From NCBI GenBank assembly GCA_016709315.1, contig JADJMZ010000007.1, positions 291,546 through 355,545 of the forward strand: a stretch of 64,000 nt of DNA, read 5' to 3'. Positions within the stretch are counted from its first letter, which is position 1, and each line of letters begins with the position of its first letter. Position numbers and translations under genes: made by a program. Below are positions 4,478 through 43,535 of this stretch, in pieces. The notes beneath the pieces were generated by a model. That model ran no database searches. It was not told the origin of the DNA and saw only the letters and a list, made by a program, of their open reading frames with translations. This DNA is from Ignavibacteria bacterium. GTDB lineage: Bacteria; Bacteroidota; Ignavibacteria; Tepidaquicellales; Tepidaquicellaceae.

Positions 4478-4569
4478 TTAAAATTAAAAAAAAAAAAATT
4501 ATTGAAAAAAAAATTTTAATTTTTTTAAAAAAAAAAAAATTCTTTTTTGTGTGGGGGGGGGGGGGGGGG
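4478..4569. repeat. Low-complexity homopolymer patch (A/T runs ending in about 17 consecutive G)
   Basis: Read directly: aaattaaaaaaaaaaaaaatt...ttttaaaaaaaaaaaaatt...gtg then G x17. Out of character for this AT-rich, otherwise complex sequence. Confidence 0.9.
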
Positions 4570-4612
4570 AAGACTTTAATTATCTGAAAGAATTGAGAAG
4601 GGATATGAATAA

Positions 4613-27331: not shown

Positions 27332-28804
27332 ATGGCAAATATTAATAATAAGCTGCTCTTTTTTATAAGATCACTTACAGAATCCGAATTAAATGAGTTC
27401 AGAAAATTCATCATTTCTCCTTTATATACTTCGGGAAGGAATTATGATACTCTCTTAAATGAAATTATAAAATTCAACAGCAAAGAAAGCAGCAGATTAA
27501 CAGTTCAGGACTTGTATTCAAAATTGTATCCCGGAAAAACATTTAATCCGCAGACTATAAAAAACCGCTTTTCCGAACTTCTTAAGCTAGGTGAAGAATT
27601 TCTTGTCTACAGAAAAATTCAGGACAGTCCCGCTGAGAAAGACAAACTGCTTCTTAGTTCCTACCTTGACAGAAAAATGTATAAATTCCTTGACAGTAAA
27701 CTGCAGAAAGAAATTTTCGAATTATCTTCAGCTCCTGATGATATTAAAAAATTTGAAAATTTATTTTCCCTTCAGGAAATGAGTATCAGGTCGCTTGGAG
27801 AAAAGAAAAAATTCGATGCCTATTTTCAAAAATTCTTTGAAAATACTTTGCTATCTACTTCCATATTTCTTAATAATCTGTTCACTAACGGCATAGAATA
27901 TAAGCAGCAGGAATATCTTAACAGAAAATATGAATTTAATTTTGTCCTTGAGATTCTGAAAGATATGAATCTTGCGAAAGTAATGAAGAAATGTCACAGT
28001 TCGGATCTGAAGATTCTTAAGATTGTGTCGATGAATTATAATCTGTACAAAGCCTATGAAAATATTAATAATGAGGATAATTATTTTGAAGCAAGAAAGA
28101 TATTTCATGAGCTTCATGATTCTCTGAGTAATGAATATAAACTCCAGCTTTATATGATCTTCATATACTTTTGCACAAGAAAGCAGAATCAGGGAATCAA
28201 TAAATATTACAATGAGCTGTTTAAACTGTTTAATGAGAAACTTGATTCAGGTTTTCACAGTGACTTCAGTCAGAATATTTATCCGCTTAGCAGTTTCAGA
28301 GATTATGTGTTTGTCGGGATTGAAGTAAATAAACTCAGCTGGGTAGATGACTTTCTGAAAAAGTATTCTGTTCTTCTGCCGGAAGACGTCAGAGATAATG
28401 AGGTCAATATTGCCAATGCAAAACTCTTCATCGCAAGAAAGAAATATCAGAATGCGCTCAGTATTATATCCGGTGTCAAGCCATCGAATTTTCTGCATTA
28501 TATTGATGTCTCTCTTATCAAACTGATAAGTTATTATGAACTCGGCGAATATGAAGATGCTTTTACTCTTATTGACAGGACAAGTCACTATATGAGAAAC
28601 CACAAGGAAATACCAAAATCCCACATGGTGAATTTCACAGGGTTTATAAAATTTCTCCATTTGCTTCTTAATGCTGCTACAGATACTAAGGTAAAAGATC
28701 AGGCATTTCTTTTTAACGAACTTAATAAATATAAATTGATTTCAAAACGGGACTGGCTGATTGAAAAGATATCTGAACTCAATAAACAAAAAAAGGCCGT
28801 CTGA
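27332..28804 (+). CDS. Hypothetical all-helical cytoplasmic protein (TPR-like?), function unknown
   Basis: 490-aa ORF with normal codon usage, no signal peptide and no recognised motif. Divergent from the 24588-27140 gene. Confidence 0.7.
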   Translation: MANINNKLLFFIRSLTESELNEFRKFIISPLYTSGRNYDTLLNEIIKFNSKESSRLTVQDLYSKLYPGKTFNPQTIKNRFSELLKLGEEFLVYRKIQDSPAEKDKLLLSSYLDRKMYKFLDSKLQKEIFELSSAPDDIKKFENLFSLQEMSIRSLGEKKKFDAYFQKFFENTLLSTSIFLNNLFTNGIEYKQQEYLNRKYEFNFVLEILKDMNLAKVMKKCHSSDLKILKIVSMNYNLYKAYENINNEDNYFEARKIFHELHDSLSNEYKLQLYMIFIYFCTRKQNQGINKYYNELFKLFNEKLDSGFHSDFSQNIYPLSSFRDYVFVGIEVNKLSWVDDFLKKYSVLLPEDVRDNEVNIANAKLFIARKKYQNALSIISGVKPSNFLHYIDVSLIKLISYYELGEYEDAFTLIDRTSHYMRNHKEIPKSHMVNFTGFIKFLHLLLNAATDTKVKDQAFLFNELNKYKLISKRDWLIEKISELNKQKKAV

Positions 28805-28811
28805 TGACAGC
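28781..28811. repeat. Left copy of the 31/32-nt direct repeat bracketing the repeat-array/GxxExxY cassette
   Basis: aataaacaaaaaaaggccgtctgatgacagc. Identical to 30112-30143 apart from one extra A. Overlaps the last codons and stop of the 27332-28804 ORF. Confidence 0.9.
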
Positions 28812-28920
28812 TATTTTAGTAAATATTTCTTCCTTAATTTTTGTTGAATGAAGTGTAATTCGTAATACCACTCAACAAACTATCTTTACTTTTACTTTAA
28901 CCAAATCTATTTTCTCAAAT

Positions 28921-29650
28921 ATATTCGCAGATGAAGAATGTTGAAAAATTCTTCTGCGGAAATTGCTCTTTGCGAATTTAATTTTTTCACACAGACATTC
29001 GCAGATGAAGAATATTAAATAATTTCATCAGCGTAAATCTGCGAATCACATCTGCGTAAATCTGCGAGAATTTCTCTTTGTGATTATGATTTATTTCACG
29101 CAGATATTCGCAGATGAAGAATATATTGAAATACCATCAGCGTAAATCTGCGAATCACATCTGCGTAAATCTGCGAGAATTTCTCTTTGCGATTATGATT
29201 TATTTCACGCAGATATTCGCAGATAAAAAATATTTTAAAATACCATCAGCGTAAATCTGCGAGAATTTCTCTTTGCGATTAAGATTTATTTCACGCAGAC
29301 ATTCGCAGATAAAAAATATTTTAAAATACCATCAGCGCAAATCTGCGAATCACATCTGCGTAAATCTGCGAGAATATCTCTTTACGATTATGATTTATTT
29401 CACGCAGATATTCGCAGATAAAGAATATTTTAAAATACCATCAGCGCAAATCTGCGAATCATATCTGCGTAAATCTGCGAGAATTTCTCTTTGCGATTAA
29501 GATTTATTTCACGCAGATATTCGCAGATAAAGAATATATTGAAATACCATCAGCGTAAATCTGCGAATCACATCTGCGTTCTTCTGCGAGAATTGCTCTT
29601 TGCGATTAAGATTTTTTTCACACAGATATTCGCAGATAAAAAATGTTTAA
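28921..29650. repeat. Tandem array of a 109-bp unit (six units plus partial ends; one unit is 86 bp)
   Basis: The unit marker tcacRcaga recurs at 28987, 29096, 29205, 29291, 29400, 29509 and 29618. The spacings are 109, 109, 86, 109, 109 and 109. Units are near-identical throughout. Confidence 0.95.
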
Positions 29651-29703
29651 TAATTCTTCTGCTCAAATGAGTTCAGTTTTGATAAAATATTTAAACGATT
29701 AGA

Positions 29704-30093
29704 ATGGAAAAAATTGAGAACAAAATATCTTTTGATATAAGAGGATGCGCTTTTAAGATTCATAATGCATTAGGACCCGGATTACTGGAATCTGTTTATG
29801 ATGCGGCATTATCATACGAACTAATTCAACTTGGATATAATGTCAAAAATCAAATTGGTATTCCAATGCTATATGAAAACATACGAATGGATGTTGGATT
29901 CAGACTGGATATTCTGGTGAACGATCTGGTAATTATAGAAATCAAGTCTGTCGAAAAGATGACAGATTTATATTTCAAGCAACTTTTAACTTATCTGAAA
30001 CTGTCAAACAGAAAATTAGGATTACTCATTAATTTTAATTCGGTGTTATTGGAAGATAAAGAATCAATATTCCGAATTGCCAATAACCTGTAA
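29704..30093 (+). CDS. GxxExxY family protein (PD-(D/E)XK nuclease-like fold family)
   Basis: 129 aa with the defining GPGLLESVY motif near the N-terminus. DILVNDLVIIEIKS fits a D...ExK-type core. Confidence 0.8.
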   Translation: MEKIENKISFDIRGCAFKIHNALGPGLLESVYDAALSYELIQLGYNVKNQIGIPMLYENIRMDVGFRLDILVNDLVIIEIKSVEKMTDLYFKQLLTYLKLSNRKLGLLINFNSVLLEDKESIFRIANNL

Positions 30094-30111
30094 TTAATAT
30101 TTCCTTTTTCT

Positions 30112-30150
30112 AATAAAACAAAAAAAGGCCGTCTGATGACAGCCTTTTTT
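30112..30150. terminator. Right copy of the direct repeat; bidirectional hairpin terminator
   Basis: aataaaacaaaaaaaggccgtctgatgacagcctttttt. An A-run, stem aggccgtc/gacagcct and a T-run sit between convergent genes ending at 30093 and 30179. Confidence 0.7.
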
Positions 30151-43307: not shown

Positions 43308-43535
43308 CTACTATTAACAGAAGACCCTCTACTATTAACAGAAGACCCTCTACTATTAACAGAAGACCCTCTACTATTAACAGAAGACCCTCTACTATTA
43401 ACAGAAGACCCTCTACTATTAACAGAAGATCTGCTACTATTAACAGAAGACCTACTATTAACAGAAGACCCTCTACTATTAACAGAAGACCCTCTACTAT
43501 AAACAGAAGACCTGATACTATTAACAGAAGTCTTT
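43308..43535. repeat. 21-bp tandem repeat, 11 units (ctactattaacagaagaccct)
   Basis: Units counted directly. Five perfect consecutive copies from 43308, then variants, including one 18-nt unit at 43434-43451. Confidence 0.95.

What the first reader, a model, noticed from the sequence alone, without database searches (positions are those of the whole stretch)
28921..30093. Hypothesis: repeat array + downstream GxxExxY nuclease-fold gene form a type III toxin-antitoxin-like RNA-protein module
Type III TA loci such as ToxIN consist of a short tandem-repeat array directly upstream of, and co-oriented with, a small endoribonuclease toxin gene. The toxin cleaves the repeat transcript into units that neutralise it. 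Here a hairpin-rich tandem array ends 53 nt before the ATG of a 129-aa GxxExxY protein, a family assigned to the PD-(D/E)XK nuclease-like fold with no established function. The pair behaves as a single inserted cassette. Differences from known systems: the unit is 109 nt rather than about 36 nt, I see no terminator between array and gene, and the transcribed strand of the array is unknown. If true, this would give GxxExxY proteins a function and define a new RNA-antitoxin class. It is inference only.
Basis: inference. Interest (0 to 1): 0.65.

Follow-up and report, generated by a model that had tools for sequence, protein, structure and literature searches.

The report
Palindromic repeat array beside GxxExxY nuclease
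The tandem repeats are gene-less copies of a palindromic "box" element that brackets this family of small nuclease genes in many bacteria. This points to a repeat-plus-nuclease partnership that looks selfish and has not, as far as I could find, been described, and not to an RNA toxin-antitoxin pair.

Summary
A hairpin-rich tandem array (28921-29662; units of 109 nt, one of 86) ends about 40-55 nt before a 129-aa GxxExxY / PD-(D/E)XK gene (29704-30093). Array and gene sit on a 1.3-kb insertion into the terminator of the upstream gene; relatives have empty sites. The type III toxin-antitoxin reading is not supported.

Each unit is a complete ORF-less palindrome: a left arm, a 20-nt loop and a right arm built of CGCAGAT/ATCTGCG heptamers about 10 nt apart. 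It is bounded by TTTCTC...GAGAA.

In 80 other GxxExxY loci the same boxes flank the gene upstream, downstream or on both sides (70/80). Often they form near-perfect 40-50-nt inverted arms that abut the start and stop codons. Boxes occur in 55% of gene-adjacent spacers and 7% of other spacers (P=2e-22). Members at 44-50% identity in other phyla keep related boxes.

Arms and ORF travel as a unit, the arms evolve in concert, there are no target-site duplications, and arm mismatches give no sign of selection for an RNA stem.

My best reading, which is inferred, is a DNA-level partnership between a palindromic repeat and its nuclease, analogous to REPIN-RAYT or homing. I found no description of it in the literature I searched.

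The parts
27332..28804 (+). Host gene (490 aa, no Pfam family). Its stop codon and terminator were the insertion target.
   Evidence: ORF list. Orthologues at 47-49% identity keep the synteny without the cassette, and their stop codon lies inside a terminator hairpin.
28784..28811 (.). Upstream copy of the 28-nt duplicated target, AAACAAAAAAAGGCCGTCTGATGACAGC. It is the left part of the old terminator and overlaps the stop codon.
   Evidence: the repeat finder family D3. There is a degraded terminator-like site at 28811-28796. A similar duplication occurs in L001 (28 nt, 3-4 differences between its two copies) and L011 (21 nt, identical).
28812..28920 (+). AT-rich leader of the inserted segment. 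It is conserved in related strains and its function is unknown.
   Evidence: Sequence. The homologous stretch is present in L001, L011 and L104.
28921..28962 (.). Initial mini-hairpin unit: CGCAGATGAAGAAT, loop, ATTCTTCTGCGGAAA. It resembles the units of the L011 lineage.
   Evidence: compared with the L011 array.
28963..29592 (.). Six head-to-tail ORF-less palindromic elements: 28963-29070, 29071-29179, 29180-29265 (86 nt), 29266-29374, 29375-29483 and 29484-29592. Each has a left arm TTTCTC...CACGCAGATATTCGCAGAT, a 20-nt AT-rich loop, and a right arm ATCAGCGtAAATCTGCGAAtcacATCTGCGtAAATCTGCGAGAA.
   Evidence: Element-register parsing. TRF and the repeat finder. Hairpin folds on either strand have z-scores from -1.8 to -3.0. 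The architecture matches the arms and units in L017, L063 and the bracketed elements.
29593..29703 (+). Last left arm (29593-29637), a degenerate right-arm remnant (ATTCTTCTGCTC, about 29650-29662) and an A-rich leader running up to the ATG.
   Evidence: This stretch folds no better than shuffled sequence (z = +1.17).
29704..30093 (+). GxxExxY / PD-(D/E)XK nuclease-fold gene (129 aa). The catalytic signature is intact: E29 in the GxxExxY helix, then D69...E79-x-K81.
   Evidence: Pfam and NCBIfam. These residues are invariant in 25 homologues. The AlphaFold model has pLDDT 77 and its weak structural neighbours are lambda exonuclease, Cas4 and tRNA-splicing endonuclease.
30116..30150 (.). Downstream copy of the 28-nt duplication (30116-30143), inside the intact bidirectional terminator hairpin (30121-30150).

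Best explanation
Shown. The array is a tandem cluster of ORF-less copies of a palindromic element. Throughout this branch of the GxxExxY family the same element brackets the nuclease gene. An arm is 3-4 heptamer boxes (CGCAGAK and lineage variants) spaced about 10 nt apart in a 10/13/10 pattern, with a conserved outer end TTTCTC-box. Two arms in inverted orientation enclose either the about 125-aa ORF or only a short loop. In the window, one GxxExxY gene together with seven such ORF-less units was inserted into the terminator of the upstream gene. It is co-oriented with that gene and sits ahead of the surviving terminator.

Inferred. The GxxExxY protein is a metal-dependent PD-(D/E)XK nuclease that recognises the phased boxes on DNA, either as duplex or as an extruded or single-stranded hairpin. 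It cuts at the element ends or in the loop. Repair or copying of that break spreads and homogenises the arm-ORF-arm unit, in a homing-like or REPIN-RAYT-like way and without target-site duplication. ORF-less arm pairs are its non-autonomous derivatives or targets. Slippage or unequal exchange between them produces tandem arrays whose copy number varies between strains. The ORF is probably expressed by read-through from host genes.
For: (1) Unit anatomy. Each 109-nt unit runs from TTTCTC to GAGAA, with 2 intact forward boxes and 4 reverse boxes around a 20-nt loop.

(2) Family-wide association. Of 80 genome loci, 70 have a box cluster or inverted arms at the gene. In an unbiased 7-mer census, TCGCAGA occurs in 49/80 loci (3.2 expected) and TCTCGCA in 35/80 (1.7 expected). 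Boxes are in 78/141 adjacent spacers against 14/188 other spacers, odds ratio 15, P=2e-22.

(3) Bracketed form. In 21/80 loci the arms score 40 or more, up to 43/43 and 51/51 identical, and end 0-15 nt from the ATG and the stop.

(4) Distant members at 44-50% identity in Alphaproteobacteria, Gemmatimonadota and other Bacteroidota keep related phased boxes. A Treponema member at 32% identity keeps a single inverted pair. Fusobacteria and Prevotella members do not.

(5) Insertion. Empty orthologous sites exist. Elements also sit precisely between thiG and thiH, and others between fabD and fabG and between radA and an FAD-protein gene.

(6) Inheritance as a unit, incongruent with site. At one orthologous Hymenobacter site, L037 carries the ORF and arm type of L051 (88% aa), which sits at another site. 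Its site-mates L049 and L066 are only 64-66% identical to it.

(7) Concerted arm evolution. Of 9 substitutions between the L049 and L066 left arms, 7 are mirrored in the right arm. In the arm alignment, 8 of 17 pairs show compensatory changes.

(8) DNA level favoured over RNA. Box spacing peaks at 10 nt. Arm mismatches are G:U-compatible equally on the sense strand (46) and antisense strand (44), and 151 are transversions.

(9) ORF-less copies occur on their own between ordinary genes, and they tend to match the box type of the resident gene.

(10) Catalytic residues are invariant.

(11) Copy number varies among strains of the same lineage.
Against: - There is no biochemical evidence that the protein binds or cuts the boxes.
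- Many sites are occupied across species and genera, so mobility is slow or the element is partly domesticated.
- The strong co-orientation with host transcription (27/32 independent contexts) and the arms abutting the start and stop codons suggest that the transcript matters as well.
- The window's gene has no right arm, and no second copy of gene or boxes occurs in the 64-kb window.
- Clean elements lack target-site duplications, yet the window cassette is flanked by a 28-nt duplication that I cannot explain.
- Fusobacteria and Prevotella copies have direct flanking repeats, not inverted ones.
- Concerted arm evolution would equally fit selection for a hairpin as such.
- The 80 loci are the closest relatives (52-81% identity) and fall into about 60 independent contexts, so the counts are somewhat inflated.
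Confidence: 0.5

Rival explanations
1. Type III toxin-antitoxin-like module. The array is transcribed, the GxxExxY protein cleaves it into unit RNAs, and those RNAs bind and neutralise the toxic nuclease.
For: - Array and gene are adjacent and co-oriented with no terminator between them, and they were inserted together.
- The repeats are linked to the gene family-wide.
- The array is probably transcribed by read-through, because the only intact terminator lies downstream of the gene.
- The PD-(D/E)XK fold includes RNA endonucleases, and there are weak Foldseek hits to tRNA-splicing endonuclease.
Against: - Units are 109-nt palindromes, not direct repeats of about 36 nt.
- In relatives the repeats lie downstream, on both sides, or as inverted arms bracketing the ORF. 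This includes the closest non-syntenic relative, L017 at 81% identity.
- ORF-less arrays occur far from any GxxExxY gene.
- Pfam finds no ToxN-type toxin family, PADLOC gives only weak Cas4-like hits, and Rfam finds no RNA family.
- There is no sense-strand G:U bias in arm mismatches.
- About 10 of 80 loci have no repeats at all, so those genes would be unprotected toxins.
Confidence: 0.04
2. RNA-level processing or insulation element. In the host read-through transcript the two arms pair into a 40-50-bp stem with the ORF in the loop. This would resemble the processing stems around rRNAs and 23S intervening sequences. RNase III, or the encoded nuclease itself, would cut the stem and release the ORF mRNA. 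ORF-less hairpin arrays would act as RNA stabilisers or attenuators.
For: - Arms abut the start and stop codons.
- Elements sit inside operons and are co-oriented with the host genes in 27/32 independent contexts, P=1e-4.
- Arms co-vary.
- The window cassette lies between a gene and its terminator.
Against: - A stem alone does not explain why the heptamer sequence and its 10-nt phasing are conserved across phyla.
- Many arms are only about 73% complementary, with the boxes kept and the spacers diverged.
- Mismatches are mostly transversions and show no G:U bias on the sense strand.
- The window's gene has no right arm to pair with.
- The D...ExK site is the metal-dependent type typical of DNases, not the catalytic site of RNA-splicing endonucleases (the site comparison is my own knowledge).
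Confidence: 0.2
3. Operator or iteron array. The boxes are binding sites for the GxxExxY protein or for a host factor, and they serve regulation or chromosome biology at a fixed locus. No mobility is involved, and the arrays arise by local duplication.
For: - The 10-nt phasing in a dimer-of-dimers layout is typical of cooperative protein binding on one face of B-DNA.
- The same sites stay occupied across genera.
- ORFs are mostly intact: 77 of 80 are full length.
Against: - The cassette is an insertion with empty sites in relatives.
- ORF-plus-arm types are incongruent with site orthology.
- Insertions lie in unrelated operons such as thi, fab and radA.
- The outer terminus TTTCTC-box is conserved like an element end.
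- The gene has no consistent functional neighbour to regulate.
Confidence: 0.12
4. Coincidence. A generic host intergenic repeat, like REP or BIME, merely happens to lie next to an unrelated small gene.
For: ORF-less box clusters do occur in other intergenic spacers of the same genomes (14/188).
Against: - Enrichment at the gene is 15-fold, P=2e-22.
- The arms bracket the ORF exactly.
- Box type and ORF are co-inherited across sites and phyla.
- The boxes occur nowhere else in the 64-kb window.
Confidence: 0.03

Closest known systems
REPIN-RAYT systems (REP palindromes and their REP-associated tyrosine transposase)
   Same: A single small nuclease gene is flanked by inverted copies of a short palindromic repeat. 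The same repeat also exists as ORF-less hairpins, singly or in clusters, in intergenic DNA. There is no target-site duplication. The elements persist vertically for long periods. Repeat type tends to match the resident gene.
   Different: The protein here has a PD-(D/E)XK fold (PF13366), not an HUH/Y1 transposase fold. The arms are 40-50 nt built from 3-4 phased heptamer boxes, not a 20-40-nt REP with a GTAG or CGTC tag. The ORF fills the loop of the palindrome exactly. Genomes can hold several ORF-bearing copies: L028 has two within 3 kb.
Type III toxin-antitoxin systems (ToxIN, CptIN, TenpIN)
   Same: A tandem repeat array lies directly upstream of, and co-oriented with, a small nuclease-fold gene, and the two move as one cassette.
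   Different: The toxin family, repeat length (109 vs about 36 nt), repeat nature (palindromic DNA element vs direct RNA repeat) and the absence of an intervening terminator all differ. In relatives the repeats lie on either side or as inverted arms. No known type III toxin or antitoxin family matches.
Free-standing homing endonuclease genes, including the PD-(D/E)XK homing enzyme I-Ssp6803I (from my own knowledge)
   Same: A small nuclease ORF sits in the middle of a symmetric sequence that also exists without the ORF. There is no target-site duplication. Insertion is precise and non-disruptive. ORF plus flanks are copied as a unit.
   Different: The element is not in an intron or intein. The putative target is a repeated palindromic element, not a unique conserved gene. 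Cleavage of empty sites is untested. There is no significant sequence or structural match to known homing enzymes; the best Foldseek hits have E >= 5e-3.
BIMEs (tandem mosaic clusters of REP palindromes in enterobacteria; from my own knowledge)
   Same: Head-to-tail arrays of hairpin units in an intergenic or 3' region, next to a terminator, with copy number varying between strains.
   Different: The sequence family and the host phyla are different. Here the array is physically coupled to a nuclease gene.
Intervening sequences of 23S rRNA that carry a small ORF (S23p / four-helix-bundle protein; from my own knowledge)
   Same: A small ORF is enclosed by long inverted repeats, inserted in and co-oriented with a host transcription unit.
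   Different: The element is not in rRNA: Rfam finds no rRNA in the window. The protein fold is different. The arms have a conserved primary sequence and phasing, and show no signature of selection for an RNA stem.
Transposons with multiple subterminal binding repeats in their ends (Tn7, Mu; from my own knowledge)
   Same: The inverted ends are composed of several phased copies of a short protein-binding motif. TnsA of Tn7 is a PD-(D/E)XK nuclease.
   Different: There is no DDE transposase and no fixed-length target-site duplication. The whole element is only about 470 bp with one 125-aa protein.

Membership tests
GxxExxY protein family (TIGR04256 / Pfam PF13366 PDDEXK_3) | Profile HMM score above the curated cut-off | tested here: met
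   TIGR04256 scores 128.1 bits (cut-off 35). PF13366 scores 121.4 bits (cut-off 22).
GxxExxY protein family (TIGR04256 / Pfam PF13366 PDDEXK_3) | GxxExxY motif plus the PD-(D/E)XK core D...(D/E)xK | tested here: met
   G26-x-x-E29-x-x-Y32, D69, E79 and K81 are invariant in a 25-sequence alignment.
Type III toxin-antitoxin (ToxIN-like) | Toxin belongs to a known type III endoribonuclease family (ToxN/AbiQ, CptN, TenpN) | tested here: not met
   Pfam returns only PF13366. PADLOC returns only weak Cas4-like hits (E >= 3e-3).
Type III toxin-antitoxin (ToxIN-like) | Short (about 34-36 nt) direct tandem repeats immediately upstream of, and co-oriented with, the toxin gene | tested here: not met
   Units are 109/86-nt palindromes. 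In 80 related loci the repeats are upstream in 39, downstream in 45 and on both sides in 29, often as inverted arms.
Type III toxin-antitoxin (ToxIN-like) | Transcriptional terminator between the repeat array and the toxin gene | tested here: not met
   No terminator-like site on the + strand between 29650 and 29704.
Type III toxin-antitoxin (ToxIN-like) | Antitoxin RNA matches a curated RNA family or a conserved pseudoknot fold | tested here: not met
   No Rfam match at gathering score. At E<=1 there are only three chance-level hits, to an L20 leader and two miRNA families. Unit folds are simple hairpins possible on either strand.
Type III toxin-antitoxin (ToxIN-like) | The protein is toxic and is neutralised by the processed repeat RNA | not testable with these tools
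   Requires expression and rescue experiments.
REPIN-RAYT | The nuclease is an HUH / Y1 (IS200-like) transposase | tested here: not met
   Pfam gives only PF13366.
REPIN-RAYT | The gene is flanked by inverted copies of a palindromic repeat that also occurs without the gene | tested here: met
REPIN-RAYT | REP carries a conserved GTAG or CGTC tag at one end | tested here: not met
   The termini are TTTCTC-box...box-GAGAAA.
IS / MITE (DDE-type cut-and-paste) | Terminal inverted repeats | tested here: met
   Arms of 40-50 nt, up to 51/51 identical.
IS / MITE (DDE-type cut-and-paste) | Fixed-length target-site duplication | tested here: not met
   At 21 clean elements the mean junction repeat is 1.67 nt against 1.29 in the flank-swapped control. 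The window's 28-nt duplication is atypical.
IS / MITE (DDE-type cut-and-paste) | Encodes, or depends on, a DDE transposase | tested here: not met
   The only ORF inside the element has a PD-(D/E)XK fold.
Homing endonuclease gene | Presence/absence polymorphism at an otherwise conserved site, with the ORF lying inside its own recognition sequence | tested here: inconclusive
   Empty sites exist, but only in distant relatives (47-49% identity), and they lack the arms. ORF-less arm pairs exist elsewhere. No closely related empty or ORF-less allele of an occupied site was recovered.
Homing endonuclease gene | The enzyme cleaves the ORF-less site | not testable with these tools
   Requires biochemistry.
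rRNA intervening sequence with ORF | Located within an rRNA gene and excised from the rRNA | tested here: not met
   Rfam finds no rRNA in the window, and the neighbours are protein-coding genes.

The most novel reading that the evidence does not exclude
GxxExxY proteins would be the dedicated nucleases of a widespread, so far unrecognised class of palindromic "box-repeat" elements. The family has about 15,000 clusters at 50% identity and no assigned function. These elements would be a PD-(D/E)XK counterpart of REPIN-RAYT or of homing elements. A 125-aa nuclease would recognise 10-nt-phased CGCAGAK boxes in its own inverted arms. It would propagate the arm-ORF-arm unit and its ORF-less derivatives through intergenic DNA and operons of Bacteroidota, Ignavibacteriota, Balneolales and other phyla, without target-site duplication.
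Probability: 0.4. Interest if true: 0.8.

Novelty: new variant of a known kind. Interest (0 to 1): 0.6.

Why it matters
GxxExxY/PDDEXK_3 is a very large family: 15,078 clusters at 50% identity with E<=1e-3. The one survey paper that lists it gives its function as "Unknown". Only three papers in the searched library mention the name, and none proposes a function.

Finding that the genes are embedded in a conserved, phased box-repeat palindrome gives the family a concrete candidate substrate that can be tested directly. It also explains three things:
- why these small genes turn up in odd intergenic and intra-operon positions;
- why assemblies break next to them, as many contigs end in the array;
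- where a class of hairpin-rich tandem repeats in Bacteroidota and Ignavibacteria comes from.

If the nuclease does mobilise the repeats, this would be a second, mechanistically independent example of the REPIN-RAYT type of long-lived intragenomic replicator. It could also be a source of compact sequence-specific DNA-binding nucleases.

Tried and rejected
- Rfam, at gathering threshold on the whole window and on 16 related loci, and at E<=1 on the region: no relevant family.
- PDB sequence search with a 25-sequence profile: no hit at E<=1.
- Foldseek against the PDB with the AlphaFold model: only generic PD-(D/E)XK neighbours (lambda exonuclease, Cas4 SSO0001, ACE1, tRNA-splicing endonuclease), TM<0.5 and E>=5e-3, so it is uninformative about the substrate.
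- PADLOC and PHROGs: weak Cas4-like hits only.
- Literature searches gave nothing on a repeat association: "GxxExxY", PF13366/PDDEXK_3/TIGR04256, the box sequences themselves, PDDEXK + inverted repeat + mobile, and REPIN + RAYT + Bacteroidetes.
- Exact-protein look-up of the window protein: not on record.
- Metagenome scan with the 490-aa neighbour, to find close empty sites: only two near-identical occupied loci. Empty sites were found only at 47-49% identity.
- Viral-contig scan: no relatives.
- Sigma-70 promoter scan: fewer sites than in shuffles, and this promoter type may not apply to the phylum.
- Paralogue search in the window: none.
- Target-site duplication search at 21 clean elements: none.
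- Sense-strand G:U bias test: none.
- I considered and rejected CRISPR (there are no unique spacers), a coding repeat (the ORFs across the array are artefacts of the repeat), and an rRNA intervening sequence (no rRNA is present).
Full report
THE OBSERVATION

The window is AT-rich (36.6% G+C). Its neighbouring proteins have type IX secretion sorting tails and their relatives are annotated as Ignavibacteria or Bacteroidota.

At 28921-29662 lies a tandem array. TRF reports periods of 109 and 86 (and their sums) with scores up to 1030. The anchor TTCGCAGAT recurs 8 times with spacings 74, 109, 109, 86, 109, 109, 109. About 55 nt after the array, a 129-aa ORF (29704-30093, + strand) matches PF13366 PDDEXK_3 (E=3e-35) and TIGR04256 GxxExxY (E=2e-37). 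No terminator-like site separates them.

THE CASSETTE IS AN INSERTION

A 28-nt direct repeat, AAACAAAAAAAGGCCGTCTGATGACAGC, occurs at 28784 and at 30116. At 28784 it overlaps the stop codon of the upstream 490-aa gene. At 30116 it lies inside an intact bidirectional terminator hairpin.

Strains with 84-98% identical proteins (L001-L016, L104) have the same layout. Their array copy number and unit length differ: 85/109-nt units in one lineage and 56/66/89-nt units in another.

More distant relatives (490-aa protein 47-49% identical; L099-L102) keep the three flanking genes in the same order. Between them there is only a terminator hairpin that overlaps the stop codon.

So about 1.3 kb (28812-30115: leader, array and GxxExxY gene) was inserted into that terminator. 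The insert is co-oriented with the upstream gene and lies ahead of the surviving terminator.

ANATOMY OF A UNIT

Read from TTTCTC to GAGAA, each 109-nt unit has three parts:
- a left arm, TTTCTCTTTGCGATTAAGATTTATTTCACGCAGATATTCGCAGAT;
- a 20-nt AT-rich loop;
- a right arm, ATCAGCGTAAATCTGCGAATCACATCTGCGTAAATCTGCGAGAA.

The right arm holds four heptamer boxes (ATCTGCG/ATCAGCG) spaced 10, 13 and 10 nt apart. The left arm holds two intact reverse-complement boxes (CGCAGAT, 10 nt apart) and two decayed ones. The 86-nt unit lacks two right-arm boxes. Units abut head to tail at GAGAA|TTTCTC.

Each unit can fold into an imperfect hairpin on either strand (z from -1.8 to -3.0). The boxes occur nowhere else in the 64-kb window, and the window holds no paralogue of the gene.

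SURVEY OF OTHER GxxExxY LOCI

A genome-collection scan with a 25-sequence alignment returned 80 loci at 52-81% identity. Most are Bacteroidota, with some Ignavibacteria and Balneolales and single Verrucomicrobia, Acidobacteria and Chloroflexi bins.

TRF on these loci showed tandem arrays next to the gene in many of them, upstream and/or downstream. All are built from the same heptamer family: CGCAGAT/ATCTGCG with the lineage variants CACAGA, CGCTGA and CGCAAAG.

The association was tested in several ways:
- Motif-cluster census: 56 of 81 loci (the window included) have a cluster within 300 nt of the gene. It is upstream in 40, downstream in 45 and on both sides in 29.
- Unbiased 7-mer census: TCGCAGA occurs in 49/80 loci within 150 nt of the ORF (3.2 expected), CGCAGAT in 41 (4.8 expected), and the terminal signature TCTCGCA in 35 (1.7 expected).
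- Intergenic control: 78 of 141 spacers adjacent to the gene hold a box cluster, against 14 of 188 other spacers in the same loci, over similar total lengths (odds ratio 15, P=2e-22).
- Counting inverted arms found by alignment as well, 70 of 80 loci carry the element.

The loci fall into orthologous groups, so there are nearer 60 independent contexts than 80. The effect is far too large for that to matter.

THE RECURRENT MINIMAL FORM

In 21 of 80 loci, a 40-50-nt arm ending 0-15 nt before the ATG is the near-perfect reverse complement of an arm that starts 0-15 nt after the stop codon. Examples are L025 (43/43), L049 (51/51) and L028 (45/47). The arm consensus is TTTCTCGCAGAK-nnn-CGCAGAK-nnnnn-CGCAGAK-nnn-CGCAGA.

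Other features of these elements:
- Same-strand box spacing peaks sharply at 10 nt.
- The outer end TTTC(T/A)C-box is conserved, and there is no target-site duplication outside it. The mean junction repeat is 1.67 nt against 1.29 in a flank-swapped control.
- A second class of loci has arms only about 73% complementary, with the boxes retained and the spacers diverged.
- Some genes lie between complete ORF-less hairpins instead of inside one (L019, L063, L096). L017, the closest non-syntenic relative at 81% identity, has 118-nt ORF-less hairpin units in tandem on both sides of the gene.
- ORF-less box clusters also occur between ordinary genes. Their box composition resembles that of the resident gene's arms more than that of other loci (mean cosine 0.33 vs 0.215, P=0.003, a noisy test).

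The window's array is therefore a tandem cluster of ORF-less copies of the family's arm pair.

MORE DISTANT MEMBERS

GxxExxY genes on plasmids and chromids at 32-50% identity behave as follows:
- Sphingomonas, between fabD and fabG: three CGCGAAG boxes upstream.
- Bernardetia and Bacteroides finegoldii, between housekeeping genes: inverted CACAGAG arms.
- Gemmatirosa: three phased CCTCTGCG boxes upstream.
- Treponema: one inverted ACACGGATTCG pair.
- Fusobacteria and Prevotella: direct flanking repeats of another sequence, not inverted ones.
- Persicobacter (34% identity): no flanking boxes or repeats stood out.

Another member sits exactly between the thiG stop and the thiH start, with 5 and 6 nt to spare.

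Between co-directional neighbours the ORF is co-oriented with them in 27 of 32 independent contexts (P=1e-4). This suggests expression by read-through.

EVIDENCE THAT ARMS AND ORF BEHAVE AS A UNIT

Three Hymenobacter species share both flanks of one site (73-81% nt identity). L049 and L066 carry 83%-identical proteins with one arm type. L037 carries a protein only 64-66% identical to those, but 88% identical to L051, with L051's arm type, and L051 sits at a different site.

Between L049 and L066, 9 substitutions separate the left arms and 7 of them are mirrored in the right arms. In an alignment of 14 bracketed elements, 8 of 17 predicted pairs show compensatory double changes.

DNA OR RNA?

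If a stem in the sense transcript were under selection, mismatches between arms should be enriched for G:U-compatible pairs on the sense strand. Across 31 loci they are not. There are 46 sense-compatible against 44 antisense-compatible mismatches (P=0.92), and 151 of 241 mismatches are transversions.

Three further points make recognition of DNA by a protein the more economical reading:
- the heptamer sequence is conserved across phyla;
- the phasing is 10 nt, close to the B-DNA helical repeat;
- the boxes persist in arms that no longer pair.

The co-orientation bias and the arms abutting the start and stop codons keep an RNA-level role alive as a rival.

THE PROTEIN

E29 (in GxxExxY), D69, E79 and K81 are invariant. 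This is the canonical metal-dependent PD-(D/E)XK site. The AlphaFold model (pLDDT 77) has the expected alpha/beta core. Its structural neighbours are weak and generic. No solved structure is detectable by sequence.

The family has 15,078 clusters at 50% identity (E<=1e-3). The survey paper that lists PF13366 gives its function as "Unknown".

VERDICT ON THE INTERPRETATION

The type III toxin-antitoxin model fails every defining feature that could be tested here: toxin family, short direct upstream repeats, an intervening terminator, and a known antitoxin RNA.

The family-wide architecture also contradicts it. Inverted arms, either-side arrays, solo ORF-less copies and about 10 of 80 genes with no repeats at all do not fit. 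I give that model about 4%.

BEST EXPLANATION

Shown: the array consists of ORF-less copies of the palindromic box element that brackets GxxExxY genes. The cassette is an insertion. Arms and ORF are inherited together and evolve in concert.

Inferred (about 50%): the nuclease recognises the phased boxes on DNA and makes a break. Repair or copying of that break propagates and homogenises the unit, in a homing-like or REPIN-RAYT-like way. ORF-less units would be its derivatives or targets, and slippage would expand them into arrays.

It is not a member of the REPIN-RAYT, DDE-transposon, known homing-endonuclease or rRNA-IVS families, because a defining feature fails in each case. It seems to work most like the first or the third. 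I found no description of the association in the searched literature. I cannot exclude a mention in database curation notes that I could not read.

UNEXPLAINED

- The 28-nt duplication flanking the window cassette is unlike the clean elements, which have no duplication. Its two copies also co-vary between lineages.
- The arms fall into near-perfect and box-only classes.
- The Fusobacteria and Prevotella copies have direct flanking repeats.

Noticed in passing
window 43308-43530: A 21-nt tandem repeat (CTACTATTAACAGAAGACCCT, 10.8 copies, 92% matches) lies in what seems to be intergenic DNA. The only ORF across it is an 81-aa repeat artefact.
   Followed up: partly
window 4480-4570: A G17 homopolymer (4553-4569) is preceded by long A and T runs and lies about 40 nt upstream of an ATG near 4606. 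It could be a slipped-strand (phase-variable) tract.
   Followed up: no
window 28784-28811 and 30116-30143; L011 5322-5342 and 6406-6426: The two copies of the flanking duplication are identical within a lineage but differ between lineages: AAACAAAAAAAGGCCGTC in the window, AAATTAAAAAAGGCTGTC in L011. This suggests gene conversion between the copies or a constraint I do not understand.
   Followed up: partly
L028 1424-1801 and 4682-5059: Two GxxExxY genes lie 3 kb apart in one Bacteroidales genome, each bracketed by its own inverted box arms.
   Followed up: partly
L084 2498-2634, L057 2636-2709, L065 1861-1983: ORF-less box clusters lie beside the orthologous sugar-nucleotide genes (a WxcM-like gene and an epimerase) in three Flavobacteriia genomes, in the same spacer in L084 and L057. 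A GxxExxY gene follows one gene further downstream.
   Followed up: partly
L033 3995-4243, L057 3995-4177, L071 3995-4132: These are truncated GxxExxY ORFs (82, 60 and 45 aa). L033 and L057 lie at sites where orthologous loci carry an intact gene, so the element decays in some lineages.
   Followed up: no
L124 (Fusobacteria plasmid) and L125 (Prevotella), flanks of the GxxExxY gene: The gene is flanked by direct repeats of about 55 nt, not inverted ones, and their motifs differ.
   Followed up: no
Proteins P0162, P0163, P0170, P0173 and others: Some representatives are about 270-295 aa with two GxxExxY-matching stretches, so they are tandem-fused double-domain versions.
   Followed up: no
L003-L010, L013, L015, L016: Many metagenome contigs that carry the gene end inside or just after the upstream array. 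The repeat therefore breaks short-read assemblies, and array lengths in such contigs (and possibly in the window's relatives) may be under-assembled.
   Followed up: no
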